A stretch of DNA of 64,000 nt, taken from Dimorphilus gyrociliatus (lineage: Eukaryota > Animalia > Annelida). Shown in pieces: positions 1 to 42,430 of the stretch. The DNA lies in the NCBI GenBank assembly GCA_904063045.1, contig CAJFCJ010000011.1, positions 451,100-515,099 of the forward strand, read 5' to 3'. The notes beneath the pieces were generated by a model that saw nothing but the letters and a program-made list of their open reading frames with translations, ran no database searches and was not told the origin of the DNA. Each line of letters opens with the position of its first letter. The stretch's first letter is position 1. The translations under genes and the position numbers were made by a program.

Positions 1-422
1 GAGGCCATATGTCATACCTCCGATCATTTTAGTTTCAAAACAAACTTCAAATAGATCATAATCATCAGTTGTAAAAGCAAACTTTCCTTTTTCTGCTTCT
101 TCTTTAGAGTACAATGTATGTCCCTTGGAATCTGTTACCTATTAAAAAGAAAGATATTATAATTTTTTAATAAATCATTGATCACTTTCAAAAGCATGTA
201 TTTAGCAAATTATTTACAATTTTTTATACATCTATGACTTACATGAAGATTTGTTTTTTGTCCAGGTGCATGAGAAAGTTCGTATTCACCAATTACTGTA
301 ACATTTTTATGAATTTCTTCTCTTAGGCATTTTTTCACATTCGGCGAAAGATGGAATTGAATAGCAGTTATTTGCGTAAGTACTAGTGATAATAGCACAA
401 ATAACTTTCGTAATAAATCCAT
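1..422 (-). CDS. TMED10: p24/emp24 GOLD-domain cargo receptor, TMED10 (p23/TMP21)-like; 5' part only, gene continues beyond window start
   Basis: Minus ORF from ATG at 422: signal peptide [20 protein letters not shown], then [30 protein letters not shown], which closely matches TMED10 [36 protein letters not shown] donor at 238-243. Second exon 1-140 encodes [37 protein letters not shown], matching TMED10 [37 protein letters not shown]. Confidence 0.75.
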
Positions 423-3400
423 TTTATATCTACAAAATTAGTTTCCCTAAATCAATCAACAAAAACGAGTAACTAAGACGAAAATATGACTTTTTTCTTA
501 TGATTTCTTGGGTTAACGTGGCATCAACGACTTTCGACTGGTTGTCACTTCCGACGGAAGTTGAAGAATTGCAGGATCGCATATATTTAAAATTATTTAA
601 ACTAGAAATTCGATTGTTTCTTTGATGAAGATACTTTAGAGATTAATCTGATTTACGTTTTACCTCTTTCTAAATCTTAAAAATTGCATTCTTTGTGAAT
701 CCACTTTTAACGTTGAACGGAAATACGTCAAAAGTTGATTATCCGTTCAAGAACTATTACTTTTTCATATAGCTGATATTAATTCTCCGACATGATCTCG
801 TACTAATAAAATTGTCATAAAAAACATAAAACTCGACAATTCGCAATTGTTTAACAAATTATAATCTAGATTTCTTATCACACCATTCACCTATTTATAT
901 ACTACCAGTAGCATAAATGTCGTCAATAGTAAAAGCAAGATAATTATGACATAAGAGAAACCCATTAAGAAGGAAATAAACTTTGAATACAAATTTTTAG
1001 GTTATTTCCTACTTTATAAAGGCATGAAAGATTTGTGATTAATTACAACAACTCAACAACTTTTCTTCAAATCTAGAAAGCACTTCTGAAACATTCAGCT
1101 CTATGAAATTTAAATAGTCTTGTATTAAAATAGAAGATAGGCTGAAAGTATATAATTTGAAAAGTATTAAGAAGTCCCCTTAAGGATATTAATTTGAAGT
1201 CTATAAGTTTTAAGACTTATATATATACAGTATATTCTTATAGCAATATCATTTTGAAATCATACATACATAGATTATCTCTGCTTATTGCGACCCATAA
1301 ATAAGACTGTCTTTCTTCCCGTAAAAATTATTAAATATGTTTTAACAGTTTTTATTTCTATTATAAAAGTAAACTAGAATATAAGAGGAAATTGCCTTAT
1401 TTCTTGGTATGTATAAAAGGCATAGAAACAGCCCTTTTCCTTAAGAAGAGTTATTTACATTGTTATCTGATATATGATGAATGTTTTATATAAAAGTTCG
1501 GCAGTTCAAAGAGCTCTAATCAATATTTATTTCTCTTTACCTTTTAGCAACTAATCTATTAATATGATATATGCCGTATTACAAAAATAATTTACTTATT
1601 GTCGATCTTTGAAAAAACTCTTTAAACTTATCAATACACAAATATGACTGATCAATGCCTTTTATTTTTCTTAGCGTATTTGATATTTGATATCTAAATT
1701 GGCCTTGAATGCTAATATTTTAAGATAATATCAACGGGAAAATACTAAAATCTCCTACAGTTTCAGAGTTTTGGAGATTCACGTCACCTCAGATAGGATT
1801 AAGGATTATAATTCTATACGTAAAAATATAAGATATCTTAACTACTAGTGTAAATATATGTTAGAAAGTTACATATAACAAATAAAAGAAATAATAATAC
1901 AAAAAAAAACATATTATATACATATTTATATTTATGATTTACAAGTGTATTTCTCTTTTATTCCAACAAGTTATATTCTAATTGTTTTGCATACACACTC
2001 GTTTAAAGTCAAATATAGATTTTTTATACAAAACTTTCTAACATTCTTGTTTAATAGTGACGTAGATTATTGGATTAGTTGTTGAGCTAGGTTTTAGACA
2101 ATGAGGATTTATTTTAAAGTATATACAGTATATATGGTACATTGTATATTTTTATTAAACTTGTTAGTAAAATAGATCTTATAATATCTAATTTGTCCAA
2201 ATATCACATAAAATTTTTCGTAAGCTTTAATATACTACTACTTCTAATAATAGATAAGATATAGATAAGATAAGCAACCCAAATAGTAAAAAATGGCTTT
2301 ACATGATTATTTGCAAATTTTTCCTTTGATTACGTGATTTTTATAAGAATCAATTTATCATTAATGTTATTTATGAGTATTATTCTATTGAGAATACATA
2401 ATATATAGACAAGTATTTACAGCAATTGAGTCGTAATAACGTCGTGAGTCAAAAACAATTTGCATATTATTTTCTAACTTATCTTTTTGATTCCACGCCT
2501 GAGAAAATTATTATTATTATTTAAAATATTTAACTAACCTTGATAAAATAAAACTTTTATGAACTATTGCGTAATCTCTCAAAATTTACAAATACTTTGA
2601 CCTTCGTTAAAGTCTAATTAAAGATTCTTAGTATCTGGTATATAAGAACGCCCACAATTTATCCTCATATAGCTAGGCAAGAGTTTTTAATAAAAAAGAT
2701 AATAAATAAATTAATTAAAATATTGTCATAGGTAATAAAACAGCATATTTAATTTCACCAATCAATTAGAAGAGAAACATCACTCCTTAAATTTCTAATT
2801 GTTGTTTTTTAATAATATGTTAAAAGATATTAAAGCAAATTTTATGGAAAAAAGAGGAATGCATGATTTCATAATAACAAACTCTTCTTTTCTTTTTATC
2901 ATACATAAAACAAACTTTGTAGACTTTATTAAATAAAGAAAATCTATTGTTTCATCACAATTGAGCATTTTACTCTTGATGTTTATTTGGATATTGGTGT
3001 ACTGTGTGTATTATTCCAGTATATTTCTGGTAAACTACTATGTTAGATAACGATATAAATGTATTATTCATGCGTACAATTGGAAACCAATTCAAGGTCA
3101 ACGGGAAAGAACATGCTTCAATTTATCTGGCTAATCATTTTTTCAATAAATAAAAAAGATATCCAAATAAACAAAGGAAAACACCTGGTAAATATAAATA
3201 TCTAAGCCTCTTCTTTTACCTTCTTAGCGAAGCTCAATTCCCATCTCTTGGGAATATTTCAAGAAATTTTAGATAATGTTGAAATCTTTATTAGGCAACT
3301 GTTGATAAATATCCAAGAATTCTGGCATAGATTCCTGCCATAAATTCATAAAAATCATACAAGGAGCAAATTACTTAATCTCATTTTATTTAATTTCTGA

Positions 3401-4744
3401 AGTTAAGGATATATTATAAAGACTAATTCTCTCCTTGCAATGTTCTTATTTAGCTATAATATCAAATAAACCAATACATTAAACAATAAAATACTAATGT
3501 GTATATACGATAACTTTGCTACTTGTATTGTCAATTTCTGAAGCATCCATTAAGCGTGAAAAAAATACATCTTGTAAAAAGAAATTTCGATCAAATTCAA
3601 CCTAAATTAGTTCCTAATTATTCTTGAAGTTGTTTTTTTGTCCTTCAAACTTTTATAAACTAGTTTACTTGATCTTGGATAGGACAGATCAAGTAGGTTA
3701 TTAATGATTTAAAATTGACGTCTAATAATATAGGACAAAGGGTTATAATAGTATGAAAACTCATATGGCTATTGCACTAAAAAAACTGATAAATATAAAA
3801 TATATACTTAAAAGAAATATTTAGAAATCAATAGTCCTTTCCGGAAAATGTTCAGATCTAGGAACGATTGGTGTTTTATCATTTTTACTGCAATTTTACC
3901 TTCAAAATTCAATTAGAAAAAATGAGTGCTTTTTAATTGAAAATATGTTTCAATTTTGCTATTTATTGATTTGTTTACCGAATATTCACAAACGCTTAGA
4001 TGCTTAAAGCAGCTTTTTAAAGGCCCTGGAGTGAATACTTTGCGAAAATTATACCTCACGAAAAAAGGTGTTCTTCCTTATAGTAAAAATAGCGCCTTCT
4101 ATTTGATTAACTAGCCATATATTAATACCGTCATGAATAAAATCACTTAGAGAGCTTCATAGATATATATTTCTTGAAAGATTCAGAGATTTCTTAGCTA
4201 TATTTATTGCAAAATGAAAGACCTACTATTCATAAGTTAAGGACTAAGTTTAAGGAATGGTTTACTTCGATAAGAAAAACTTAATGGAAAGCTTGCGCAT
4301 CTAATATTCCTTGGTTTTTATTTTTTCCATGAAGATACCATTTATCCTGTTGTTGCTCTAACATATTACTATATATAAAAGAAATGATAATAATTAGGTA
4401 CGTTCTTAGAATCTCTGTCTGTGAAAACTGAGAGTTTATTATGTGAAAATGAGGAAATTTTACAAAGGCAAGTATTCATCTAATTATCGAGAAGAAAATC
4501 ATACTTCATTTAATCAGCTTATTAATAATGGTGGTAATAACCTTTGTAAATGCGTTCTTGTGTTAAAGTTATTGTTATACCTGATATAACTTTTATATTT
4601 CACGAGTTTAATTACAAATGCAGTTAGAAAATAATAAGATCAAGTATAAGTCATTTCTTTAAACTTCAATTCTCTATTTAGAAATATTAATTAAACTTCT
4701 TTAGCATACTAAACTGACATAATGGCATATGGTGTATAAATAGA

Positions 4745-4752
4745 GTAACCAT
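4745..4752 (+). promoter_or_regulatory. Putative TATA box (GTATAAATA) ~40 bp upstream of the GPCR-1 start codon
   Basis: TATAAATA at 4745-4752. The identical GTATAAATA element sits at the equivalent position upstream of the paralogous GPCR at 39103. Confidence 0.35.
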
Positions 4753-4788
4753 AGAAAATTCCATGCACTTACATAGAAACTGCAAGTA

Positions 4789-5866
4789 ATGATGAATTCA
4801 ACTATGACGGAAACTTTTCCGTCATATACAGAGATATTAGCAACTTTTTATGGTATTGTAGTTTTATTCGTTTTAGGAAGTTTTGGAAATTTTTTGACAA
4901 TAACAATACTTATTCAAAGTGGAAAATTTGTAAAATCAACAAATATCTTTGTTTTCAACTTAGCAGTTGCAGATCTTGTCGTTTGTTTTACAACTGTTTT
5001 TGATACTGTTTCTTACTATGCTCATGATATAAGTCATTCCGTATGCAAATACGTTATGCCCTTTTATTTTGTCGCTGCTCTTACTTCTCAACTGAATTTG
5101 GCTGTAATTGCTCTAAATAGATATGTGTTTATACTGAAGGCAAGAGACACTTATGAAAAATATTTCTCAGATAAATTATCAATCATTATATGCTTTTGCT
5201 TGTGGATTTTCAATATTCTCTATACTTCTTGGGCCTTCGTATTCACTGAATTTTATTTCGTCAGAGAAAGTTATGCATGTCAACTTAAACATCATGAAAA
5301 TACTAAACATTTTATGGCTATAACTGGGTCGTTATATTTGCTGTTAGATGTTGTTGTAATTGCTGTTATATACTTTTTAATATTTAGAGGAATAGTAAAA
5401 TCTAAAAAGAGGACACAAGTAGATCCTTCAACTGCATCATCTAATATAAACTCAACGAATGGTATGTTTCAGGTTTAGATTTTGTAAATTACTTTTATTA
5501 ATGTAAATTTCTAAGCTGTTCACAGTACATCAAGTCCTGCGAAAATTAAAAGTAAGCCAAAAAGAAAATCTGGTAATCTTAAGCAGATGTTTGCGATATG
5601 GTTCGTTTATGTTATTCTTAGCACCCCCATAGCGATTGAATTCGGAATAAGATCTCAACTTAACGTTCCCTTGCTATATGACAGGTAAACTGTTTGGAAA
5701 ATAAGTAAAAATGCGTGTAATTGTTTGAAAATCAACAGGTTCAGCAATAGCATGCTAAGAACGAATTCAGCTGTTAATGTACTAATCTATGCTTGGACAA
5801 ACACGTTATATAGAAACTTATATAAAGATTTACTTAAGAAGGCTTTCAGCAATCCTTGTGCCTAAG
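4789..5866 (+). CDS. Orphan rhodopsin-like (class A) GPCR, paralog 1; 3 exons (4789-5461, 5516-5684, 5739-5866)
   Basis: 7TM hydropathy with GNFLTITIL (TM1), NLAVADL (TM2), NRY at the end of TM3 in place of DRY, and NSAVNVLIYAW (NPxxY-like, Pro missing) in TM7. Donors G|GTATGT and AG|GTAAAC; acceptors ttctaag and atcaacag keep the frame. Stop TAA at 5864-5866. Confidence 0.8.
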
Positions 5867-7205
5867 ACAATGATAGTTCAATATTAAATTTATTGTAGAA
5901 TACAAGTACCCTGGTTCAATTACCTTTCCTTTATATTGTTTGTACATAAATATAATATACTTAAGTATTTCTAATTCGATAGAGAAGTTGAAGAAACAAG
6001 AATAGTGATGATGTTTATTTTTCTAATAATTTAACATAAACAGCATTTTTTAATTTTGAACACAATTCTTTAGCACTATCCCATAACATTTACACTTTTC
6101 AATCTACTAATTCGATTAGCACTTTAACAAATACTGAAATAGATAAGATTTTGTGAACATAACCAAAAAATAGCTCAAACAATAAATTTTTCAATCTTTA
6201 AATATCAAACTTCTGAAGTTGCGTCTTAATTTCATAATTTTCAGTGAACAAGGCTACTTTCTTATTCAAAAAGAGGCCTAACTTCAATTTGTTGAATTAT
6301 TTTTAAGGTCGCTGAAAAGTCCTCCGCTACTTTCGTACATATCAAATCTATTAATGGATAGAAATATTCGCATAAATAGAAAAATAATAAAATAACACAT
6401 ACAAGTTGAGTAAACCATCCACCAATTCGTCACTATTTTGGCAATTAAATTTTTCAAGCGTTCTTAACCATCTGGAACTACTCGATCCGTATATTTTTAA
6501 ATTTTCGGTAGTTGATATTGATTCATTCTATGAAGAAAGTTATATTTTATAAATAAGAACATGTAATTAAATCGAATCGTTACTTTCTGTGTTTGAGCAT
6601 CTATTGATCGAACATTTTGGGGTGGATCAATTAACTGCAAAATTTATTATGCAAATAAACAATTTATGGTATTACAAATATAAATAATCTATACCGTTCT
6701 CATTATTCTTTGAAAGTGAGATGTTAGTATTTCAACGCTTGGCAAGCGAAACAAACTGCATAAAGCCTTATATCCAGACGGACTTTTAAAATAGAAATCT
6801 AATAATATCTATTAAAAGATACAGTTATTGTATTACTGTAATAATATTATATATTTTTAAATATATACTTTTATTGTATCTTCATCCCAATATATATTTT
6901 TGCCTTCTTTGGCATTATAGTTTGCTTCATATTGAGACTGGAAAAATTTCTTCTGAGCAGAGGTAAGATTATGAGATGAATATATTTTATCAAAGCTTTC
7001 GCTCTTTTTATTATCGATTTCTTCTTTTAGTGCATCTATGACAAATTAATAATTTAATCAGTTAACTTTCGTATTATCTTCCATATGAAATACTTACAAT
7101 ACTTTTGTTTAAAGTTTAATGAGCTAATTTTATGTTTAGATATCATATTGGAGAATGTACAAGATTGTTTCCTATGGTTTTCAATAAGAGTTTTACACAT
7201 TTCCC

Positions 7206-9017
7206 TTAATTCTTGCTGTTGCCGAAAGGAATTACTCTTAAAAGTTTCTTTTCGAATAAATGAAATAAACTTACAGCCGATAAATCATCTATCTGTTTTA
7301 CTTTATCCATGTCACTTGAGTTTGCACTGGCACTGTTTAAAGATGAGGTTGTCGTTGTGGAATTCAATTGATCTGTGTTACGAACTGATCCACTGATACT
7401 ACCACTAGATATTATTCTCCTTAACATTTTTTCCTGCTCCGGTGTTGCCTTGACATTTACAGTTACAGGTGTTCCAGTCTTATCCGCTGATGTTTTCATA
7501 ATATTTAACAAGGATTTGATATCATCCTCTTTACTTAAATCAAGTACTTTAGAGTTATCATTTTTGGAGGATGGCTTAATTTGCTGCATCTGAATCGGAT
7601 TAACAACAGCTCCATTAGATGGAGCAATCGTGGCATTCTGTTGTGGGCGGTTTTCTAAGACTATTGCTGAAGTAACTCGAGCCATATTACCTCGACTAAC
7701 GACTATTTTAGGTTTATTGATAATATTTTCATTTAGATGGCTCTGAGATATTTTGGAACTTTTTATAGCAATTGGTCTCTGGCCCACAGAGATATTTTGC
7801 ACGTCGCCATCACTCACAGGAATAAGTATTTGTTCTACTTTTCCACTATCATCCCTTCCCACAAAGAAGGTATGACCCGGTTGAACGCTTTCTGGTACTG
7901 GTAACTTAAGGATTGTGTTACTTCCAGGCAAAATACACTCCACTATTTTTTGTTTCTCTTTCTCTCTGATACTGGAAGTTTGAGCTATATTGGGAGCAAT
8001 AGAGGTATTTGATAATGCCTTTAGATTCGAAGATTCGTTAGGAGTTTCGTTTGAGACATCAAGTTTTATTCTTTTTGTAGGCAAGTAACTGTTCTCATCC
8101 TTATCAAAAACAAATTATTAATAGTTTATACGAATTTAAAATCAAATTTTACACCAACTTCATTATTTTCTTCTATAATACTTTCACTTTGGATTTGTAA
8201 AACATTTGATGTTTTTGGTACAGCCGTTTTTTTTAAGGCACTTGTCTGAAAATGACTAGGATTTTGAAAATCGTCGCGTCCAAAGTGATCGCTGCATACT
8301 TGTAATTTTCTCAAAGAAACCGTTAATTTGGAGTATCCCAATGCTTGTGCCCACTGCTCAAACCTATTGCAAATATAAAGATAAACTCAAGGAAAACAGT
8401 CGTTTTCACAAACCTTTTTTGTTCAAATGGAAAACTAAACCAGCGCAAAACATTTCCAAAGTTATCTGATACGTTTTGAGTACGTCGGTTCTTACAACTC
8501 TTTACTGCACATTTTGCCCCTGTTCTTTTTGTTTTCTCTTGAGTAGGAACAACTGCTTCTCGACTATTCAAAACAGTTTCCACTGTGATTTCTGCCTCTG
8601 GTGTACAATCCCCAGTTTCTTGATGAATATGGTTTTCGTTCACATTTTTAAACTTAACAACAACCTGATTTTTAAAGAGAATATAACATTAATGCTACAA
8701 TATGTTTCATTTACTAACTTTATCATCTTTTTCAATATTTCCTTCAACTGAAATTGGCTCTTTTCTCTTTAAAAAAAAAATTGTTAACAAAATATAGTCT
8801 ATTTTTTATCTTATAATAACGTACTATATTAACTTTCAAGTCAGGAATTGCACCATCTTTGAGAGTTTGATTTTCGGTATCTTCGTAACAAGTATTTCCA
8901 AAGTGTCTACTACACAAATAGCTTTCTTGATTAGGCTTAAAGCCTATAGGGCATATCTTAAGCCACTCTGTCAATTGCTCTATTGTATTGGCATCTTGAC
9001 CTTGAGGAAAACTAGAT
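7206..9017 (-). CDS. THAP-domain protein with two THAP-type zinc-finger modules plus a long Ser/Thr/Asn-rich tail; 5' end (first half of the upstream THAP) not located
   Basis: Minus-strand exons: ...EQLTEWLKICPIGFKPNQESYLCSRHF (C-terminal half of a THAP domain, C-x2-H). Then KCAVKSCKNRRTQNVSDNFGNVLRWFSFPFEQKR (THAP N-half, C-x4-C ... FP ... R) spliced via GTTTGT/ttgcaatag to FEQWAQALGYSKLTVSLRKLQVCSDHFGRDDF. Then a 292-codon ORF 7206-8084 rich in S/T/N/Q. Whether this is one gene or two is not resolved. Confidence 0.5.
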
Positions 9018-10895
9018 AAAGATTGTTAATGCATAAAATTTACAAAAATTTTACTCCAGCTCACCAGAAAAATTGAATTCTCTCGTCACCTCCCTCGTTT
9101 TCTATGGCTTGGCATGCTACACACTCTTTAACAATCTATTCACGAAAAAATATTAATAGTAAGCTTAATAAAGCTATGTAAACGAAAATTATGAGTACTT
9201 GAGAAATATCCTTATTTTGCCCGACATCCATTCGTTCTTCATTAACAAAATTTCTTCAATTATAACTTAACCATTTCAACTTTACGATGATGCCACATGC
9301 TTGATATATTAAGTAAACAGAAATATACTGCAAAATGAAATGAAAAAAGTAGTATAGTTAAAATTATTTAACAATTTTATTTCGAAAAATTGTTTCGTCT
9401 GAGCGATAATGAATGAAAATTAACTGCAAGTCGATGCAATATTTATTTTGAGCTGGTTTTATTTAGTTTTATTCTTATAAATGAATGATAACTTAATTCT
9501 TTTACTTTACAATTGAGGTTAAATTTACTTATGGTACCTCTAAAGTCGATCTTTTAAAAATATTTTTCCTGCTAAATACTCAAAATCACAACTAAATCAA
9601 AAATGGCTGCCAGATTTTGGTGGCCCATAATCAACTTAAAATTGTTGAATGAATTGTTATAAGATTTCCTACAACATTTGAAACTTTATTAACTTTTGTA
9701 GTTTAGTGCTTATTATATCCGTAATTTGTATATTGAATGCGAGAACAGTTAATTTCGAATTAAAGTATTCCAAAAAGTCAATGTTTAACAATGGCTTTAA
9801 TAGAGATAGATAGTCGTTATTGTAAAATGAAAAATAAATGTGTATACAAAAGTTTCCAATTATTTTTCACAGGCACTTAAGATAAGCGAAATAGAGAAAA
9901 TAACCTGCACTTCACTTCGAAAATATAACTACAATAGGCCTACAAAAAAATGTTTTTTCTTAAGTTTTCTCAAAAATCTCCTTAAATCAAGATAGAAAAA
10001 GATCCTCAGAGGAGAAAAGATTAAACTATACATCTGGTTGACCACCATCGGTTAGTTAGATGTGAGGGTTACAAACTCTTTTTGATAGCTTCACTCATAA
10101 GAATTTTTATTCTCTTACGACAACAAAGAACACGTGGTAATGCAGCCTGTAAAAAGATTTTTTTCTTTACTTTACAACAACTAATTTACTAGTACACAAC
10201 TGCCAAGATGAAACAGTTTTAGGACTAATTTTCGGGAAAAATTCTTTCATTTACAATCTTTCACCCACAAGAAAAAAGAATGTTTTAGCAGTCTTCAAAT
10301 TAATCAAGTTGTTAATAATAAGTAGAATTCCAGTAAATTTTTCCAAATCTATAGTCTTATGAGTGGTAGAATTTATAGAAAAGTGTAGCATGTATTAAAT
10401 TACAGGCGTTTAGACATAATAAACTTGTAATAAACGATTCTTTCGAATCTTATATTCCATAACCAGAGATTAATTAAGGGTAAAAAGGGTATTAGGCCAT
10501 GTAAATTGTTCGCACAACGCTAACATTTAACAGCTGGCCGTAAAAAAATCGTAATTGCGAAGGCCAATCTAGAAAAGTATAATATATAGCTAAAATATTT
10601 TTGCACTTGGTACTCTTGGTACTGTTGCTAGGTTCTAGGCCTAAGAATTCTGGGGGTTCATCTCGCATGTGGGTGGTAATATATATAATAAGGATCAAGA
10701 TATTGTAAAAAAAGAGGTTGAAGTATATAGAAATATGATTCATTATCAAGAATACAGTAATTTTTTTATAGATATTCCAAGTAAAAACATGCTACTAAAC
10801 GATTTAATAAAAAAAATCTGTGGGAAATTTCCCTAGGTTATAGATAGCTGGCTCCGCCGGTTTGTACGTATCTAACAGTCTAGACGGCAGTTCTT

Positions 10896-12249
10896 TTGCA
10901 GTTTACCCATCTTCAAGAGGTAATGTTAGACGTTCGATTCGTCGACGGCCTCTTCAACCTCTTTTTAGCCTGCCCAATAATTATCCTTTTCACATGGTCA
11001 TTAATCTCCTTCCTCGACAGCCTACCAACATTCCTATTCCCCTTCCTTACAACCTTCTCCCTAACAATTGAATTCGCCATCCTCTACTACCAAGAACTCC
11101 TAGTTGACCTAGCTGATCATATAGGGTTGGAGTACAATTATTTTGCTCTTTGCGTTTACAATTATATTATACTTTCTTCTAACGTCATTCGTTATAATGG
11201 ATTGGAAAATTTAATCGGTTGGCTGGGATTATCAAATGGCAAGTGCTTAGTTACCTGCGTAGTTATCCTCTGCGGAATAAGAGGGATGAAGAACATAGTT
11301 GGATCACCGTTTCGACTAGAATGCGACATAGATATGAATTTAAAGGATTATATTCGCTGTGAGGATACTTTATTCCAAATCCAGGTAAAAACAAAAGAAA
11401 GAACTTTCATGAATACAGTTTTTTTTAGCTATTATCGTCTCTGTTTCTATGATATATTTTCTCTATCTCAAGTCCTATGTATTAATTTATGTCTTCCCTT
11501 TCCTCTTTTTCGTTTGTGATCTTTAAAACATCATAAATTTATTTTAGCATTCTTATCTATGCTACATATACAAATAGCCTAAAGAAAAAAGTTCGGAGAA
11601 CGCCATAGACATCATAGCCACTATACTCTTCGTCTACATCCCTGTCGATCTCTGCTGGATATCGATATGGAACTTGATGGATAACTTCTGCTTGAATCTA
11701 ACAGCTTACCTCCACCCGACAATCGTTTGGTTCGTTTGCTATGTAATCTCATCTAGCATTTGCCTATCAATGCTAACCTTTCAAGACTTGGTATTGGAGT
11801 TTTTAAGAAACATCAACTTCCGGCATGCTTTCATCAAGATAATCGTTCAAGATATTTACTTGCTGGTTGTTTGCTCCATAACAGTTTTATATTGGAGAAG
11901 TGTTTTTAGCGTTTACACCTTCCTAGCTAAACATTTCCCTATTTTACATAAGGGAAAATTTGACACAAGCGTTGTGCATAGCCATATTACATCTTACTTA
12001 ATGCTGTGCTTATTATATATTACAAGTTCAATGATTACTCGAGGATGTTCTATTACACGGATAGATGATGAGGCCTATGACAGTCAATTCCAATCCATTT
12101 TCTTCCGTTTTAAATACTTTGAGACTCTATTCGATGGTAATGGCAGAGACAAGATGATCTTTCAAGAAAGTGTTGAAAAAGAATGCTCAATCCCCAAAGG
12201 AACGAACGGCCTGAGTTTGATTATGAATGATAAAACACAAGATTCATAA
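10896..12249 (+). other. Two consecutive hydrophobic ORFs (207 and 191 codons) of unknown function inside a GC-richer block; coding status uncertain
   Basis: ORFs 10896-11519 and 11674-12249 encode multi-hydrophobic segments with no recognisable family. Region 10850-11350 has visibly higher GC and CpG than its flanks (ccgccgg, cgtcgacggcc). A GTAAAA follows ...LFQIQ at ~11390. Confidence 0.2.
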
Positions 12250-12367
12250 CAATTGTTTTTTTGTTCTCAATTTCCTTATCTATACTTATTATAAAAGATT
12301 GCTATTATATTTAAAGGAAGAAGAAACTAGTTTCTTATTTATTAAGATCACATCTAAACAATGTTAT

Positions 12368-13884
12368 CAGTCCCATAATTGTAGCGAAAAATTTTCGTCG
12401 TAATTACAATTTCGTAGTTCATCTGCAGACGCAAAAAGACAGTTTTTACAGTTAGATTTAGTTAACGAATTGTCTCACCGGAAATCTGTGAAAAATTTAA
12501 CGAATCAGTTAAAACTATAAACTGCTCTTTATCATAATCCTTTCTTTTTACAACCCACAAATCTGAATGTGAGTGTTGAACTATTAACTCGCTATAATCA
12601 CTTTCATTGCTGAAAAAGTAGCATATTAGATATTAGACAAAATAATACATTCTTTAAGAAAAACTACTAACAATTTCCATGTATAATGCATATCTGCTAT
12701 CAAGGAGCATGCTGGTTCAACGATTGATTTATTGCTACGTTTTGATGAGAAGTCAGCTCCGTTAATATATATGTAGGTAGGAGAAGAGGAGTTTCTGTAT
12801 ATAAGGTAATGAAGTTTTCTGTAAATATCAAAAGCAATCTCTACTTACTCTTGCTTTCTTGAAATCCATTCTTCATATATATCCGTGGCTAGAGCACTTT
12901 GTTGTACGTCTAAGTAGTCGTGAATGTTTCGAAACCATTGTTCATTGGGAGGCGTCTTCCCATTAACCAGCATACATAATGTACTGGACAAAGCTGCATA
13001 AACAACTAAGTGGTAGGATTTAACAACTTCATTACCATTACAAATATGGACTAGGGGAAGTGTAGGTTTATTATCCTTGCTTAAATCGGACGGTCCATGT
13101 AAAAATTTACCATACTGGTTAATCTTTGGTGTCCCAGCTTCATTTGTAGTTTCCCTGCTTCTGGGTAATAGGCACTTAGTGACGTAGTAATACAAAATAC
13201 GCATATCTGAGTGGTGCAGTCCACTCCAAACTATTTCGTCATTAAAGAATAAGGCTGTACATGCTATATCAGAAAAAGAGGATGACAATCTATTCATGGA
13301 GCAATAGACTCTCATAAAATTATTCTTCTCAAGACAGAAGAACTTCATATAGCCCTCTGCATTCAGCAGATTAAAAGAGCTAGCAGATAAGGTTGACAAG
13401 TATGAATCAAAAAAACATTCTAAATACTTGGACAAGCAACTGTAGTCAGAATTATTATTTTTCAAAATATAGCTGCAGTTTCCATGAAAAAAGCAAAATG
13501 TCCTATATGCTATATTCAATATCGTTTGATAAAGACCGACACAGCATTTACTCTTCTTATTGTCGTTGATAACTGTCATAACAAAGCAAATGTTATCCTC
13601 CACCACTTGGAAAACTTGACAAGTTGTGGTTGTGTATAGGTATTGACATGGTTCGTCTGTAAAGTCTTCTGTAAAGTTGATTACTGCTTCGGACAATCCT
13701 ACTATTCTGCTTTTGATCATAACATCTTCAGACTTCGGGTGGAAGTATAGAATTTTGTCATCGGTCTAAATGGTAAAATTTTAAATATTTCATTACTATA
13801 TTTATAGGGTTAAAATCAAACCTTATCCTCGTCCAGAATTAGTTTTCCTCTAAAAATAAAAAAGTTTCCGAGCTTCGGCTCCAT
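12368..13884 (-). CDS. CCZ1: CCZ1 (vacuolar fusion / MON1-CCZ1 Rab7 GEF subunit) homolog; at least 4 exons
   Basis: MEPKLGNFFIFRGKLILDEDK | TDDKILYFHPKSEDVMIKSRIVGLSEAVINFTEDF...CQVFQVVEDNICFVMTVIN matches human CCZ1 LSFFIYNPRF...KILFYHPNEVEKNEKIRNVGLCEAIVQFTRTF...NFWMVMVV. Exon 1 has a GTTTGA donor, exon 2 ends at GTAAGT. Downstream exons LWVVKRKDYDKEQFIVL (human WVVGKRSDRELYVIL) and ...DELRNCNYDENFSLQLWD* end at a TGA at 12368-12370. Confidence 0.8.
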
Positions 13885-14689
13885 TTGTCTTTTTTGTTCA
13901 GAGTGATATAGTGGCGAACTTGCCAATTGCAAGCTTCTCCTTTCAATCGAACATAAAGATCCTCCCAAAAATAAAAATCCATCAGATGTCGCTAAAGTAT
14001 TTGATGACACATTTGATGAGAAACCAACTGAAAATCAACAAATTGTTGTCTATAGTAATTTAAATTTGATTGGTAGAAAATCTAATCCAATATTATCCAG
14101 CACATAAGTCTTTTTTACTCTTCGTTTACGAATTTTTACGACACATATAAAATAATAGGAAAAGACTTCTTTATAGGATTCGAAATTTCAAACTTTATTT
14201 CAGTTTAGAATTGATAAACGTTGCGCTTAGACTTAAAATTAATGATCTTCCTTTACTTTTAGTATGACGTATTATCATATGTAGGTTTCAACAAAATTTA
14301 TTTTTTGCTAAAATAAGTTATGAAATACGCTTTATATTTAATTTATAACTTCATAAATAACAAACAATGCATGTTTGTAGCCATTTTGAAAACAATTTTT
14401 ATAGGTCTATTCCCTTATACATCTAATCACAAAAACATTGAGCAATGTCAAAAGTACCTACATGCGCATGCTCATTAAACGTGCAACTTTAAGAGCAGCC
14501 ATTGCGTTACAAAAGTTTCACAAACACCTTTCAATTGCTTTATCAAAATTGGTAAAGATTTGTATCTATTTCAACTATTTCCGATAATTGCGAGAGGCGA
14601 TAATTTCAAAAAAAAAAACAGAAATAGATTATTTTCAGGAAGTATCTACTTTTAAGTGAAATTACTTTTCAAACTATCTGGCACAAACA

Positions 14690-15961
14690 ATGAATTCTCT
14701 CACTGTCAGCCAGCCAAAAGTAAACATTAGAGGATTGTTGTGTAACCAAATATTTAATCCCACAAAATTCGTCGCAGTCGTCGAATCAGATCAGGAGATA
14801 AAGGTAGTCGACGACAATTGTGTATTAATAAAGGGGCAACGCTTAATGATACACTATCGGCACACGAAAGAAAACGGAGTCTTCATGGAAGAAGAGCCAA
14901 ACGGAACTGTACATGTATATGAGAATGAAAGAAATAGATATTCTGCTATTAATCGATCAAAACTTCAATTTGTAAATGAATTTGGAAACTGTGTCTTAAG
15001 GGTTAGTCGAAAATCAAGAAGATACATTTGTTTGGATCTTCGAAAGAGAATAAATTCCGTTTGGCCTTCTTCTATAGCTGAGTATTTCAAGACTTTTCGT
15101 GCCGTTAGTGTTCAGTATCAAGACGTGGAGGGAGTTCTCCATGTAACTCCAGAAGTCACCCCTGAGTGGACCAAAGTTCTAAATGAAATTGAAGTGGAAG
15201 ACAATTTCTACAAGAGAACTAAAAGTTTACGAACGATTAGCCCATCATATACTTCATCTCCTGATTCTGACTGGTCAGATGTCATTCTTCAGTTGAATTC
15301 TACTGAAATCTTACCGACTGTCGACGAATTGAAACGTTCAGTGGAATCGTATCGAAACCAGAGCAAAACTTGTGGTACAAAGAAATCTCTGGACAGTGAT
15401 ACAACTCATGATTACGATCAGACGATTAAAATGACTGTTATTGAAAGAACACGAAAAACCTTTAAAGCTGTTATGGAAACATGTATACAGGAAAGTGATA
15501 AAGCTATTTTGCAGAAACAAGTTATTCAAGATCTAAATGAAAATCCTGATGTAATTATGACTGAATTAGAGAGATTAAAAAGAGAAAATGTAGTAAAATT
15601 TGAGATTTGCACTTTACTAAACTTTTATATCAATGCCAGCGTCACTGTTTCTGATTCTTGTCATCCTGTAATTACTGAATTGTGCGAATGGGTTATTTTC
15701 AGGGTTGTTAAAAAGAGTTTAGGTTGCTTTGAAGCTATAGACTGCTTATCAGAATTAATTGCAAATGAAGGTGCATCTGTATTAAAAAAATATTGTCCAA
15801 AGGCTGTGAAAAAATTATTAGCTTTCCTTGAGCAACAAAAGTCAACTTCCTTTAATAGTAAAGCTTGGAATCAAATAATCGACTGTTTTGATTACAATTG
15901 CAGCGAGGAATTACCTTTTGCTTCAAACTTGGACGGCAAAAGCGAAACTTTCGGCAGGTAA
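14690..15961 (+). CDS. Hypothetical protein, 423-aa single long exon, no family recognised
   Basis: Uninterrupted 1272-nt ORF from ATG in a ~30% GC genome, which is unlikely by chance. Codon usage resembles neighbouring genes. The end overlaps GGCAG|GTAAGC, a possible donor, but no in-frame downstream acceptor was found. Confidence 0.45.
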   Translation: MNSLTVSQPKVNIRGLLCNQIFNPTKFVAVVESDQEIKVVDDNCVLIKGQRLMIHYRHTKENGVFMEEEPNGTVHVYENERNRYSAINRSKLQFVNEFGNCVLRVSRKSRRYICLDLRKRINSVWPSSIAEYFKTFRAVSVQYQDVEGVLHVTPEVTPEWTKVLNEIEVEDNFYKRTKSLRTISPSYTSSPDSDWSDVILQLNSTEILPTVDELKRSVESYRNQSKTCGTKKSLDSDTTHDYDQTIKMTVIERTRKTFKAVMETCIQESDKAILQKQVIQDLNENPDVIMTELERLKRENVVKFEICTLLNFYINASVTVSDSCHPVITELCEWVIFRVVKKSLGCFEAIDCLSELIANEGASVLKKYCPKAVKKLLAFLEQQKSTSFNSKAWNQIIDCFDYNCSEELPFASNLDGKSETFGR

Positions 15962-37972: not shown

Positions 37973-39059
37973 TTGTTTTCTTGTTAACTTTTAAAGTCCG
38001 AGCAGTACCGAATGTGAAAACATGAAAAACATGGAGAAGCCTATTGCTATAGGCCAAAATATTACAGTTTTATATCAAATTACACAATCGGAAATTATAT
38101 ATACAATAGGGAAACCAAAAGAAGAGAAAGAAGACAAAATTCAAGAGAAACGTTCTTTACGAAAGAGTTTTTAATTCTGGAAATATTTTTAAATGATAAG
38201 GTACAAACAGATGCAATTGTTAAGTGAAATGTATGAATGCTGCTTCCAGAGATGATTAAATTTAAAAAAAATGTAGAAATTATAGACAAATAGTTTCTTT
38301 TCAACAAAGTAAATTATCACAGCGCTAAAAAAGATAATTAAAAAACTAGGATATAAATCATAATAATTGAATTCAAGGAAATAAGATATAAAGATATCTA
38401 TATTTCTAAAAGTAAGAAACATAGAAAAGTAAATAGAAAACCAAACAATTAACAAGAAAATAACCATACACTATCGGTTTTTTTATATTAAAACAATATT
38501 TAAAAAAAAATTTTCCTTTTTAATTATAAGAAAAAACTAGCTTTAAACTATTTTTACACATTGTATTAAATAGAAATACAATTGTAATTATATCTTGTTT
38601 GAGAATTGAAAATTTCATAAATAATAGAATACTTCATACTGACAAGCACTCTTGTAAATTTAAAATAATTGATCATTGATACATAAAACTATAGATTTTA
38701 TTTATTTAGCTGTACATACGAATTTTATACTTTCTTTAGTAATACATACCATTTATGTACACAGTATATAGATTGTATATTTTTGTTATTCAATTCTCCT
38801 TAAGAGAAAATAGACACTTTTAATAATTTTATATAAGATGATTATTTAATAGAATGGTTTTGTTTCCCTCCTTTTCATATCATTACGGTAATTTGATCCT
38901 AAACTCCAGATTCCTTTCGCTTTTTATATACATTGAAATATATTATCACGCTAATTTTAATAAAGTATGACGCAGATTGAAAATTTAGTAATGAACAAAG
39001 CTTTTTCTATAAAGTATATAATCATTTCATTTCGTCATATGAAACAATCCGATTGTAAG

Positions 39060-39067
39060 TATAAATA
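39060..39067 (+). promoter_or_regulatory. Putative TATA box (GTATAAATA) ~36 bp upstream of the GPCR-2 ATG
   Basis: Same 9-mer as upstream of GPCR-1. Confidence 0.35.
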
Positions 39068-39102
39068 TTTTTCTCCAGCTTTAATGAACTTTATACATAC
39101 CT

Positions 39103-40225
39103 ATGTATACTTTGAACAGAGATAAAATAATAATGGAGAAAGTTTCCAATAGTAGTGAAACTATCTTTCCCCTATATAGTAACATTATAGCTGATGTTTA
39201 TGGTATAGCCGTCATTTTTTGCTTGGGTTCTTTGGGAAATTTCCTTACAATTATAATTCTCCTTCACAAAAGAATATTTCATTTGTCAACAAATATTTTC
39301 ATCTTTAATTTGGCTCTAGCTGATGGTTTTATATGCTTAATTAATGTTTTTCATACTATAGCTTACTATTATTCTGCCATTCATATTCAAATTTGCACCG
39401 TTTATACTGTTGTATTTATATCTTGTGCAAATATTTCACAGTATAGTTTAGCTTTAATTGCAATAAATAGATATTTTTTTGTATTAAAAACCCAAGAAAA
39501 GTATGAAAGTTTATTTTCCTGTAAGCTTTGCTGGGTGTGGTGTATTTCTTTATGGTTTCTGTCTTGGTGCATTGGTCTTTCAACTCTATTTCTCGCATAT
39601 TTTAATTTTGATCGTAAGTCTCATTCTTGTAAAGTGAAAAATTATTCCGAAATGAAAACATTTCTTCTTATTAATTCTGTCTGTTGTTTCGTAGTAAATG
39701 TTCTATTAATAGGTATTTTCTATTTAAAAATATATAATGGGATAAGAAAATCTAGAACCAGAGTTATGTCTCTTGCAAATACACTACAAATCGTATCCTC
39801 ATTAACTTCTCAGAAAGGTAAATTAGTAAATAGATTTTTATAAATGATCTATATTTAATAAGGAAGTATACTGCAGCTATAAATCAGATGAAAAGTAATG
39901 ACAGTATAACTATGAAGAAGAGAAGATCAGCGATAAAAGAGATTAATCAATTTTTTTTAATATGGTTTTTATATGTATTGTTTATATTACCAATTATAAT
40001 TGATGTTATACTGAGACGGACTAGTACTGTACCCTACATTTACGATCGGTTTGATCTTTTTCATTAAACTATTGACTGCTGTTCAAGTTATTATTTTGCA
40101 GTGTAAGCTATAACTTACTTCGAACGAACTCTACCGTGAATATAATGATATATGTCTGGAATAATAAACAGCTTAGAAAAATCATGAAAGAGCTTTTTTT
40201 TAATAAGGTATGCAAAGCTATTTAA
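39103..40225 (+). CDS. Orphan rhodopsin-like GPCR, paralog 2; 3 exons (39103-39817, 39877-40048, 40102-40225)
   Basis: IIADVYGIAVIFCLGSLGNFLTIIILLH / NLALADGF / INRY / ...LIWFLYVLFILPIIIDVILRRTSTVPYIYDR / RVSYNLLRTNSTVNIMIYVW aligns along its length with GPCR-1 (4789). Intron phases are identical (1, 2), donors G|GTAAAT and CG|GTTTGA, acceptors ctgcag and ttttgcag. Confidence 0.8.
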
Positions 40226-40277: not shown

Positions 40278-40799
40278 TCAAATAAGAAATTTATTTAATA
40301 ATAAATAGATTAAGCTTGAATTCAAAATCCAAAATAGATCTAACTTTCCCTGACACTTTGCTCCGGCACCGTTGCCAGGTATTGAATCGTGATCCAGTCT
40401 ATATTCCTCTTTTATTCTTGTATAATTTGCCACCCTTTCAAGAAATCCCTCTTTTCCATTACAAAAATTACCAAGACAATAACAATGGTGAGAAGAGCCA
40501 TCATTGAAACAGTTCTCCGTAACAAAAGTGGTGTCAGTATAACAAAGTCTATTAATTACCGCTGTTCCTAAGGAATATTTATAAATAAGCAAATTTTTCA
40601 TCCATTATGTACTTAAAAAATTAATTACCATTTCTAGTATTATTCTGATTAACAGTAGTAAGACAGGATCCTGAGGATATATCCACTTGGCACGTGTAAT
40701 TGGCCATCAAAACATCACTCGGTTCAATTTGCAAGTCTTTACACCAGCTTTGATCCTTAGAATTGCATTTTAAGCATTGTATTGCTGAAATTATGCCTT
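40278..40799 (-). CDS. Ly6/uPAR protein domain exons with GPI-signal-like tail; signal exon possibly shared with the gene at 40816-41467
   Basis: Acceptor atttttttacag, then (E)GIISAIQCLKCNSKDQSWCKDLQIEPSDVLMANYTCQVDISSGSCLTTVNQNNTRNG, then acceptor ccttag, then GTAVINRLCYTDTTFVTENCFNDGSSHHCYCLGNFCNGKEGF...AKCQGKLDLFWILNSSLIYLLLNKFLI*. Confidence 0.5.
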
Positions 40800-42085: not shown

Positions 42086-42430
42086 CTAGAAAGAAATGAC
42101 TAAAAAATTGAGGTAAAGAAAGGTAGAGAAATTATTTTGCAGGTGAAATTCAATCTTAATAATAAAGGTGTTTAATTGATACTGATAAGTTTGTTTATTG
42201 TGTCTCTTTCTATGGTTTTTCCCTACTTTACTATAAGATAAAAATACATTTCTTTCGTTTTCCTCATCTAATCTATTACAAGTGTTAGATGAACAGTAAC
42301 AAGTAGCAGTATTCTTTTCAGTTTCATAGAATTTTTTGGCAGTAGGTGAAGGATCCTTGATTGAGGTCATATGAACAATTACTTACCATTTCCCGAGCAC
42401 ATGTAGACGAATAAAGATAAGGGCAATAAA
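42086..42430 (-). CDS. Ly6/uPAR-like protein fragment (C-terminal domain exon with CYCSSNTCN motif and hydrophobic tail; upstream Cys-rich exon CKQFYCPYLYSSTCAREM + GTAAGT)
   Basis: ...TATCYCSSNTCNRLDEENERNVFLSYSKV...STFLYLNFLVISF*. Exon linkage is not fully resolved. Confidence 0.4.

What the first reader, a model, noticed from the sequence alone, without database searches (positions are those of the whole stretch)
4745..5866. Pair of divergent orphan class-A GPCR paralogs with non-canonical NRY and NVLIY motifs and conserved promoter/intron architecture
Genes at 4789-5866 and 39103-40225 (34 kb apart, same strand) share roughly 40-45% identity and the same three-exon structure. Both have a phase-1 intron in the third intracellular loop and a phase-2 intron before TM7, and both have a GTATAAATA box ~40 bp upstream of the ATG.
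Both replace the E/DRY motif with NRY and lack the Pro of NPxxY (NVLIY / NIMIY).
It is established that loss of the DRY Asp and the NPxxY Pro usually alters G-protein coupling and activation.
It is inference that these are a lineage-specific receptor subfamily, for example chemosensory or peptide receptors with atypical activation. No close match to a named family is evident by eye.
Basis: partly seen in the sequence, partly recalled or inferred. Interest (0 to 1): 0.55.

Follow-up and report, generated by a model that had tools for sequence, protein, structure and literature searches.

The report
Two orphan melatonin-receptor-like GPCR paralogs
Two intact, three-exon genes in an AT-rich invertebrate genome encode a small, lineage-restricted subfamily of rhodopsin-type receptors whose "odd" NRY and Pro-less TM7 motifs are shared with the melatonin/Tre1/GPR84-like receptor group, so this is a modestly interesting new orphan family rather than a new kind of receptor.

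Summary
Gene 1 (exons 4789-5461, 5516-5684, 5739-5865; 322 aa) and gene 2 (39103-39817, 39877-40048, 40102-40225; 336 aa) are intact class A GPCR genes. They are 39% identical (E 8e-73) and have homologous phase-1 and phase-2 introns. Both have a GTATAAATA box upstream, NRY at 3.49-3.51 and NVLIY/NIMIY at 7.49-7.53.

A syntenic ortholog of gene 1 in a related species keeps both motifs and both introns, with dN/dS 0.12. That species also has a third paralog (NRL, NIFIY) with the same intron phases. In 1.84 billion representative proteins, only these relatives score below 1e-30, so the family is lineage-restricted and orphan.

The highlighted motifs are not unique to this family. Of the 145 nearest homologs, 124 have Asn3.49, and 36 of 112 lack Pro7.50. 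NRY and NAxxY are the textbook marks of melatonin receptors, and Tre1 has NRY. However, the melatonin-binding residues are absent and no orthology is supported.

What is family-specific is Gln3.40, Tyr6.44, a non-Pro residue at 5.50, no Trp6.48, and Arg7.43 or Lys7.39. The receptors are probably functional, with unknown ligands. Interest is low to moderate.

The parts
4734..4742 (+). TATA box (GTATAAATA) of gene 1, 55 nt upstream of the ATG
   Evidence: The ortholog has TATAAAAA at the same distance, 55 nt (L001 9946 to ATG 10001). The 9-mer occurs 8 times in the window against about 2 expected.
4789..5461 (+). Gene 1 exon 1. It encodes the N-terminus through TM5 and the start of ICL3, and ends in phase 1.
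   Evidence: Donor is GTATGT. The region is 81% identical in protein to ortholog fragment P0001.
5116..5124 (+). NRY codons (Asn110-Arg111-Tyr112, positions 3.49-3.51) of gene 1
   Evidence: Aligned to GRY of GPR84 and DRY of galanin receptor 1.
5462..5515 (+). Gene 1 intron 1 (54 nt, phase 1, GT..AG)
   Evidence: Homologous introns are present in gene 2, in the ortholog (L001 10678-10732) and in the third paralog (L002 6662-6716).
5516..5684 (+). Gene 1 exon 2 (rest of ICL3, TM6, ECL3)
   Evidence: Contains LSTP in place of CWxP (5617-5628).
5685..5738 (+). Gene 1 intron 2 (54 nt, phase 2, GT..AG), splitting the invariant Arg codon of YDR
   Evidence: The same Arg codon is split in gene 2, in the ortholog and in the L002 paralog.
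5739..5865 (+). Gene 1 exon 3 (TM7 with NVLIY at 5776-5790, helix 8, stop TAA 5863-5865)
   Evidence: 81% identical to the ortholog exon.
39059..39067 (+). TATA box (GTATAAATA) of gene 2, 44 nt upstream of ATG 39103
39103..39817 (+). Gene 2 exon 1 (NRY at 39466-39474). An alternative in-frame ATG lies at 39133.
39877..40048 (+). Gene 2 exon 2 (ICL3, TM6 with FILP, ECL3). It is flanked by intron 1 (39818-39876, phase 1) and intron 2 (40049-40101, phase 2).
40102..40225 (+). Gene 2 exon 3 (TM7 with NIMIY at 40139-40153, helix 8, stop)

Best explanation
The two loci are functional genes for a small, old, lineage-restricted subfamily of rhodopsin-type (class A) G-protein-coupled receptors. There are at least three paralogs in the lineage. 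The subfamily arose inside the broad Asn3.49 ('NRY') radiation that also holds melatonin receptors and the invertebrate receptors that databases label melatonin-, moody- or GPR84-like.

Shown here: the proteins fold as 7TM plus helix 8. They keep the residues that engage and activate G protein (Arg3.50, Tyr5.58, Tyr7.53), the Asp2.50/Ser3.39/Asn7.45/Asn7.49 polar core, and the TM3-ECL2 disulfide.

Inferred: they are signalling-competent receptors. Because Asn replaces the acidic 3.49 and position 6.30 is Lys or Ser, there is no ionic lock. They are expected to activate easily and to couple like their NRY relatives, probably to Gi/o.

Shown: the cytoplasmic halves of the helices are conserved between paralogs (about 55% identity), while the ligand-side halves have diverged (20-31%).

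Inferred: each paralog therefore recognises a different ligand through a shared signalling core. There is no Asp3.32, so the ligand is not a biogenic amine. The melatonin contact residues are absent, so it is not melatonin. A family-specific basic residue lies deep in the pocket (Arg7.43 or Lys7.39), together with aromatic residues. This suggests small hydrophobic or anionic ligands, but that is speculation.

Shown: the usual transmission switch is rewritten in all members to Asp/Asn/Thr5.50 - Gln3.40 - Tyr6.44, Ser/Ile/Asn6.48 and Val/Ile7.50.
For: - Intact three-exon ORFs with GT..AG introns at homologous positions in four genes.
- Pfam 7tm_1 matches at 4e-27 and 2e-21.
- AlphaFold model with pLDDT 88 and pTM 0.87, showing seven helices plus helix 8. 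It matches solved class A receptors, with TM-score up to 0.74 to GPR84.
- A syntenic ortholog in a collinear contig of a related species is 73% identical, with dN/dS 0.115 and dS about 1.55. It retains NRY, NVLIY and both introns.
- Conserved N1.50, D2.50, C3.25, S3.39, R3.50, W4.50, Y5.58, P6.50, N7.45, N7.49 and Y7.53.
- 124 of the 145 nearest homologs have N3.49, and 36 of 112 lack P7.50.
- Database names of the neighbours are melatonin-like, moody-like, GPR84-like and 5-HT4-like.
- The family is monophyletic at 90% bootstrap.
- Gln3.40 is found in 0 of 143 non-family homologs. Arg7.43 is not among the eight commonest residues at that position in the nearest homologs.
- Identity between paralogs is 54-55% in the inner TM halves and 20-31% in the outer halves.
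- Literature: natural NRY/NAxxY melatonin receptors signal through Gi (PMC3645733, PMC8786939), and the Tre1 NRY motif acts through G-alpha-o (PMC5584160).
Against: - There is no expression or transcript evidence. The splice junctions are inferred from reading frame and from conservation.
- The ortholog contig carries one extra T in a T-run that breaks the frame (L001 around 10406-10415). This could be a real pseudogenising mutation in that species.
- No ortholog of gene 2 was recovered. By collinearity its expected position lies just beyond the contig end, so purifying selection is shown only for gene 1.
- Trp6.48, Pro5.50, Ile3.40 and Pro7.50 are all missing, so canonical activation cannot simply be assumed.
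- Coupling preference and ligand class are inference only.
- Deep nodes of the tree are unresolved: the sister group has 14% support. Placement in the 'NRY radiation' rests on motif enrichment and best-hit ranking, and a query profile that itself carries Asn slightly favours Asn hits.
Confidence: 0.7

Rival explanations
1. They are true but divergent melatonin receptors: orthologs or co-orthologs of MT1/MT2/GPR50 that still bind melatonin or a related indole.
For: - NRY and a Pro-less N-x-x-x-Y in TM7 are the diagnostic melatonin-receptor motifs (PMC3645733).
- GPR50, MT1 and MT2 are among the PDB profile hits, at E 3e-18 to 6e-15.
- Several nearest homologs are annotated as melatonin receptor 1B-like or 1C-like.
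Against: - The PDB hits are flat across families. GPR84, galanin, opioid and muscarinic receptors score as well or better.
- The melatonin-contact and activation residues N4.60, Y5.38, H5.46 and W6.48 are A/P/T, F/L, Y/C/L and S/I/N here (PMC8786939).
- Position 7.50 is Val or Ile, not Ala. The CWAP motif is absent.
- In the NJ tree a bona fide vertebrate-type melatonin receptor does not group with the family.
Confidence: 0.07
2. They are chemosensory (odorant- or tastant-type) receptors of a lineage-specific expansion.
For: - The family is lineage-restricted and has no named ortholog.
- The ligand-side halves of the helices diverge much faster than the cytoplasmic halves between paralogs.
- There are weak matches to nematode Srsx, Srv and Srw chemoreceptor models.
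Against: - Only two copies lie in 64 kb. They are 34 kb apart and separated by about ten unrelated housekeeping-type genes, not arranged in a tandem array.
- Only three family members are detectable in the related species' assembly through the protein library.
- The 1:1 ortholog is under strong constraint, including the outer helix halves (77% identity; dN/dS 0.12). This is unlike birth-and-death chemoreceptor families.
- The Srsx/Srv/Srw matches are far weaker than the 7tm_1 match and are typical of any class A receptor.
Confidence: 0.15
3. They are non-signalling, constitutively active or decaying receptors (decoys or pseudogenes in the making), because four canonical microswitches are lost.
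For: - D3.49, P5.50, W6.48 and P7.50 are all replaced.
- The ortholog contig has a frameshifting extra T.
- There is no expression evidence.
Against: - dN/dS is 0.12 with saturated dS, across full-length ORFs and conserved splice sites in two species.
- R3.50, Y5.58, Y7.53, N7.49 and D2.50 are kept in all four sequences.
- The replacements are themselves conserved within the family: Gln3.40 and Tyr6.44 are invariant. This indicates selection on a modified core rather than decay.
- The frameshift lies in a run of nine or ten T in an automatic short-read assembly.
Confidence: 0.08

Closest known systems
Melatonin receptors (MT1/MTNR1A, MT2/MTNR1B, GPR50/Mel1c), class A alpha group
   Same: Asn3.49 gives NRY in place of D/ERY, and TM7 has N-x-x-x-Y without Pro7.50. 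Both have a short N-terminus and the TM3-ECL2 disulfide. Both are among the best profile hits (PMC3645733).
   Different: Position 7.50 is Val or Ile, not Ala. The CWAP motif and Trp6.48 are absent. The P5.50-I3.40-F6.44 triad is replaced by D/N/T-Q-Y. The melatonin contacts N4.60, Y5.38 and H5.46 are not conserved. No phylogenetic grouping is supported.
Drosophila Tre1 / moody and vertebrate GPR84 group
   Same: Tre1 carries NRY and GPR84 carries GRY at the same position. GPR84 is the top PDB sequence hit (E 6e-19) and the best structural match by TM-score (0.74). Some nearest homologs are annotated moody-like or GPR84-like (PMC5584160).
   Different: Tre1 keeps NPIIY. No orthology was demonstrated, because no fly sequences were available for a direct test. 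The family-specific Gln3.40, Tyr6.44 and Arg7.43 were found in none or few of the 145 nearest homologs.
Lineage-specific orphan rhodopsin families of invertebrates, such as flatworm PROF1/Srfb and fwRhods
   Same: The concept is the same: taxonomically restricted, highly diverged rhodopsin-like receptors with degenerate TM3, TM6 and TM7 motifs and unknown ligands (PMC3261222, PMC6114109).
   Different: PROF1 genes are intronless and keep Asp3.49 (D[R/K][C/M], DR[L/V]). They have [N/S][F/G]xx[Y/F] in TM7. The present genes have two introns, NRY/NRL and N[V/I]xxY. The host is not evidently a flatworm: its best named OSBP match is an annelid at 64%.

Membership tests
Class A (rhodopsin-like) GPCR, Pfam PF00001 7tm_1 | Significant match to the 7tm_1 profile above the gathering score | tested here: met
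   95.7 and 77.1 bits against a cut-off of 30.5.
Class A (rhodopsin-like) GPCR, Pfam PF00001 7tm_1 | Seven-helix bundle plus helix 8, superimposable on solved class A receptors | tested here: met
   AlphaFold pLDDT 88 and pTM 0.87. Foldseek found 1421 PDB matches at E<=0.001, all GPCRs among the top 50.
Class A (rhodopsin-like) GPCR, Pfam PF00001 7tm_1 | Reference residues N1.50, D2.50, R3.50, W4.50, Y5.58, P6.50, N7.49, Y7.53 and the C3.25-ECL2 Cys pair | tested here: met
   All are present in p1, p2, the ortholog and the third paralog.
Class A (rhodopsin-like) GPCR, Pfam PF00001 7tm_1 | Canonical microswitches D/E3.49, P5.50-I3.40-F6.44, CW6.48xP and P7.50 | tested here: not met
   The residues are N3.49; D/N/T5.50, Q3.40 and Y6.44; S/I/N6.48; and V/I7.50. 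These are typical rather than obligatory features of the class.
Melatonin receptor family | NRY motif after TM3 | tested here: met
   NRY in p1, p2 and the ortholog; NRL in the third paralog.
Melatonin receptor family | NAxxY in TM7 (Ala7.50) | tested here: not met
   The motifs are NVLIY, NIMIY and NIFIY. Pro is absent, but the residue is Val or Ile, not Ala (PMC3645733).
Melatonin receptor family | CWAP in TM6 with Trp6.48 contacting the ligand | tested here: not met
   The motifs are LSTP, FILP and LNIP (PMC8786939).
Melatonin receptor family | Ligand-pocket residues N4.60, Y5.38 and H5.46 | tested here: not met
   The residues are A/P/T/P, F/F/F/L and Y/Y/C/L. Counts were made from conserved anchors and compared with a Callorhinchus MT1A-like sequence.
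Melatonin receptor family | Monophyly with bona fide melatonin receptors | tested here: inconclusive
   The NJ tree (252 columns, 100 bootstraps) places the family apart, but deep nodes have below 50% support.
Tre1 / moody / GPR84 group | Non-acidic 3.49 (NRY in Tre1, GRY in GPR84) | tested here: met
   NRY aligns with GRY of GPR84. NRY in Tre1 is taken from PMC5584160.
Tre1 / moody / GPR84 group | Orthology to Tre1, moody or GPR84 | not tested
Only database labels of neighbours (moody-like, GPR84-like) were seen.
Flatworm PROF1 (Srfb) orphan rhodopsins | Intronless genes; TM3 D[R/K][C/M], DR[L/V] or D[R/S]C; TM7 [N/S/D][F/G/I]xx[Y/F/M/L] | tested here: not met
   These genes have two introns and N rather than D at 3.49. 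PROF1 motifs are from Table 3 of PMC3261222.
Expanded chemoreceptor-type GPCR families | Many paralogs, usually in tandem arrays, with rapid turnover | tested here: not met
   Two copies lie 34 kb apart among unrelated genes, with no further copy in 64 kb. The 1:1 ortholog has dN/dS 0.12. Genome-wide family size could not be counted.

The most novel reading that the evidence does not exclude
The subfamily may represent a class A receptor design in which the whole ligand-to-G-protein transmission switch has been rebuilt from polar residues. The changes are Gln3.40, Tyr6.44 and Asp/Asn/Thr5.50 in place of the hydrophobic P-I-F triad; no Trp6.48 toggle; no Pro7.50 kink; and a buried Arg7.43 (or Lys7.39) at the position of the opsin Schiff-base lysine. 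Activation would then run through a hydrogen-bond or salt-bridge relay, possibly triggered directly by an anionic ligand binding Arg7.43. Gln3.40 was found in 0 of 143 non-family neighbours, and it is invariant in all four family sequences.
Probability: 0.15. Interest if true: 0.5.

Novelty: new member of a known kind. Interest (0 to 1): 0.3.

Why it matters
The finding adds a previously unnamed, taxonomically restricted orphan subfamily to the rhodopsin-type GPCRs of a poorly sampled spiralian lineage. It also corrects the reading of its 'non-canonical' motifs: NRY and a Pro-less TM7 are inherited clade features of the melatonin/Tre1/GPR84-like radiation, not evidence of unusual coupling.

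The part that could interest GPCR specialists is the conserved replacement of the P-I-F connector and the Trp6.48 toggle by polar residues, together with a buried Arg7.43. That combination would be a natural experiment on how class A activation can be rewired. Without expression data or pharmacology it remains an annotation-level result, and lineage-specific orphan rhodopsin families are already common in invertebrate genomes.

Tried and rejected
- The word-indexed homology search with p1 alone returned nothing at E<=0.001. The exhaustive HMMER search was needed instead.
- The 423-aa ORF at 14690-15961 and the Dimorphilus OSBP protein are not on record, so a synteny test in Dimorphilus was impossible.
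- A profile search with the family plus 86 neighbours (A3) gave only heterogeneous automatic names (5-HT4-like, kappa-opioid-like, beta-3 adrenergic, moody-like, melatonin-like). It was useful only as a source of reference sequences for the tree.
- Upstream regions of gene 1, gene 2, the ortholog and the third paralog do not align beyond a TATA box. The 'conserved promoter' idea was rejected.
- The flatworm PROF1/fwRhod hypothesis was considered because of the AT-rich genome and short introns. It was rejected on motifs, on the presence of introns and on the taxon of the best hits.
- The true melatonin receptor hypothesis was rejected on pocket residues.
- No further GPCR copy, DNA repeat, Rfam family or tRNA was found in the window.

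Full report
**The observation**

The window is 31% GC eukaryotic DNA. At the stated coordinates there is a 229-codon ORF starting at ATG 4789, with an in-frame stop 15 nt upstream. Joining 4789-5461, 5516-5684 and 5739-5865 across two GT..AG introns of 54 nt each gives an uninterrupted 322-aa protein.

The second locus gives a 336-aa protein from 39103-39817, 39877-40048 and 40102-40225, with introns of 59 and 53 nt. The two proteins are 39% identical over 318 residues, E 8e-73.

Intron 1 is phase 1 in both genes and splits an aligned Ala codon (G|CT) in the third intracellular loop. Intron 2 is phase 2 in both and splits the invariant Arg codon of a conserved YDR just before TM7.

GTATAAATA lies at 4734-4742 and 39059-39067, which is 55 and 44 nt before the ATGs. 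The 9-mer occurs 8 times in the window against about 2 expected. TATAAA lies 35-80 nt upstream of 7% of random positions. Nothing else in the upstream regions aligns. The boxes are therefore plausible but generic TATA promoters. No DNA-level repeat links the two loci, and tblastn finds no third copy in the window.

**What the proteins are**

Both pass Pfam 7tm_1, at 4e-27 and 2e-21. A profile of the pair hits 573 solved GPCR sequences. The best hits are GPR84, galanin receptor 1, GPR50, the opioid receptors, muscarinic M2 and MT1/MT2, all within E 6e-19 to 6e-15. In those alignments NRY lies on GRY of GPR84 and DRY of galanin receptor 1, and NVLIY lies on NPxxY.

An AlphaFold model of gene 1 built on an 88-sequence alignment is confident (pLDDT 88, pTM 0.87) and shows seven helices plus helix 8. 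Foldseek returns only class A receptors, with TM-score up to 0.74 to GPR84.

**Relatives elsewhere**

An exhaustive HMMER search of 1.84 billion representative proteins found 6444 hits, but only two below 1e-30. P0001 is a 140-aa fragment 81% identical to gene 1. P0002 is a 239-aa fragment about 36% identical to both genes. Both come from one sequencing run, SRR23372228.

The contig carrying P0001 is collinear with window positions 14-15259 (EMP24, GPCR, an unnamed ORF, Fuseless-like, Intu-longin), so it holds the ortholog. After removing one T from a T-run, its three-exon model gives a 322-aa protein 73% identical to gene 1. It has NRY, NVLIY, both introns and a TATAAAAA box 55 nt upstream. 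dN/dS is 0.115 with dS about 1.55.

The P0002 locus is not syntenic with the window. It encodes a third paralog of 312 aa with NRL, NIFIY and the same intron phases.

An NJ tree (252 columns, 100 bootstraps) makes the four sequences monophyletic at 90%. The nearest group has only 14% support. It consists of unnamed, apparently intronless receptors that also lack Pro7.50.

**Host organism**

The host is an unidentified spiralian. A 379-aa OSBP-related ORF in the window is 90% identical to the SRR23372228 species and 64% identical to the annelid Dimorphilus gyrociliatus. Molluscs, arthropods and vertebrates score 54-59%.

**The motifs in context**

Among the 145 best homologs aligned to the family profile, 124 have Asn at 3.49: 78 NRY, 19 NRF, 13 NRL and 9 NRW. 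Only 6 have Asp or Glu there. Of the 112 that cover TM7, 36 lack Pro7.50. A query carrying Asn biases this slightly, but one column cannot account for the enrichment.

The named neighbours are annotated melatonin receptor 1B-like or 1C-like, moody-like, GPR84-like, 5-HT4-like and alpha-1B-like. In the literature NRY plus NAxxY is the defining signature of melatonin receptors, which signal normally through Gi (PMC3645733; PMC8786939). Tre1 uses an NRY motif acting through G-alpha-o (PMC5584160). The two motifs are therefore inherited clade characters, not a peculiarity of this gene pair, and by themselves they do not predict aberrant coupling.

**Not melatonin receptors, not PROF1**

Counting from conserved anchors, the melatonin contact and activation residues N4.60, Y5.38, H5.46 and W6.48 are A/P/T/P, F/F/F/L, Y/Y/C/L and S/S/I/N in the four family sequences. 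M3.32 is Y/Y/F/H, so there is no Asp3.32 either.

Flatworm PROF1 receptors are intronless and keep Asp3.49, so that family is also excluded.

**What is specific to the family**

- All four sequences keep N1.50, D2.50, C3.25, S3.39, R3.50, W4.50, Y5.58, P6.50, N7.45, N7.49 and Y7.53.
- All four have Gln3.40, found in 0 of 143 other homologs, and Tyr6.44, found in 9 others.
- All four have a non-Pro polar residue at 5.50 (Asp, Asn or Thr), no Trp6.48, Val or Ile at 7.50, and Lys or Ser at 6.30.
- Each has a basic pocket residue: Arg7.43 in gene 1, its ortholog and gene 2, and Lys7.39 in the third paralog. These are rare among the neighbours.
- Between paralogs, the cytoplasmic halves of the helices are 54-55% identical and the extracellular halves 20-31%. 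Between orthologs the figures are 83% and 77%.

**Interpretation**

The most likely reading (confidence about 0.7) is a functional, old, lineage-restricted orphan subfamily of class A receptors within the NRY radiation. The members share a signalling core that lacks an ionic lock, and each paralog has its own ligand. Gi/o-type coupling and a small hydrophobic or anionic ligand are inferences from relatives and pocket chemistry; they have not been demonstrated.

The rivals are:
- Divergent true melatonin receptors (0.07), contradicted by the pocket residues.
- Chemoreceptors (0.15), disfavoured by the small, dispersed and strongly constrained family. About ten unrelated genes separate the two copies: Fuseless-like, Intu/CCZ1-longin, DnaJ, OSBP-9, a mitochondrial carrier, a 1887-aa zf-DBF/BRCT protein, AP sigma, and others.
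- Decaying or non-signalling receptors (0.08), disfavoured by dN/dS 0.12 and by conservation of the replacement residues themselves.

**Limits**

- There is no transcript evidence.
- The gene 2 ortholog was not recovered. By collinearity it would lie just beyond the contig end.
- The ortholog's T-run frameshift is unresolved.
- The deep phylogeny is unresolved.

**Verdict**

This is a new orphan subfamily of a known receptor class. Its advertised oddities are clade-typical, but its transmission switch is unusually rewritten. Interest is 0.3.

Noticed in passing
L001 10406-10415 (ortholog of gene 1 in the SRR23372228 contig): A run of T has one base more than the reading frame allows, splitting the ortholog into two called ORFs (142 aa and 126 aa). 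The rest of the gene is intact and under purifying selection. This is either a homopolymer assembly error or a very recent frameshift.
   Followed up: partly
window 4763-4789 and 39084-39125: Short upstream ORFs lie between the TATA box and the main ATG of both GPCR genes. Gene 1 has 8 codons whose stop overlaps the start as TAATG. Gene 2 has 13 codons. They may lie upstream of the transcription start, about 30 nt after the TATA box, or they may act as uORFs.
   Followed up: no
window, 8 sites: 4734, 23708, 34519, 39059, 45451(-), 48613(-), 59582(-), 59606: The extended TATA consensus GTATAAATA occurs 8 times against about 2 expected. One divergent pair lies only 16 nt apart, at 59582-59590(-) and 59606-59614(+). 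This looks like the organism's general core-promoter consensus.
   Followed up: partly
window 25079-30742 (+): A single uninterrupted 1887-codon ORF, rich in Ser, Lys, Glu and Pro low-complexity sequence. It has an N-terminal BRCT-like region and a DBF-type zinc finger (E 4e-10), so it resembles DBF4/ZDBF. The exon is unusually long for an animal gene.
   Followed up: partly
window 52834-57999 (+): A 1721-codon ORF of almost pure coiled-coil composition (Glu, Lys, Leu, Gln) with no Pfam match. It is probably a golgin- or CENP-like protein.
   Followed up: partly
window 40278-40601 (-) and 42086-42370 (-): Two small ORFs just downstream of gene 2, on the opposite strand, share a Cys-rich C-Y-C-x-x-N-x-C-N stretch. 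This is reminiscent of the C-terminal CCxxxxCN of Ly6/uPAR three-finger domains. Neither has a significant Pfam match.
   Followed up: partly
window 62264-63708 (+), 46122-46634 (+), 10896-12249 (+): Exons of a nicotinic-type ligand-gated ion channel subunit (Neur_chan_LBD 5e-27, Neur_chan_memb 1e-33), a globin-domain ORF (9e-07) and a two-exon Fuseless-like membrane protein. These are ordinary animal genes that frame the two GPCR loci.
   Followed up: partly
L003 91-1173 and L004 103-1185 (NCBI assemblies GCA_022702875.1 and GCA_022702835.1): P0012 is a member of the weakly supported nearest group (NRY, NFLIY). It is encoded by a single uninterrupted 360-codon ORF, which suggests that the two introns of the family studied here are lineage-specific or that the neighbours are intronless.
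   Followed up: partly
window 600-4780 versus L001 7463-9998: The intergenic region upstream of gene 1 is 4.2 kb here and 2.5 kb in the related species. It shows no detectable similarity, although the flanking genes are collinear.
   Followed up: no
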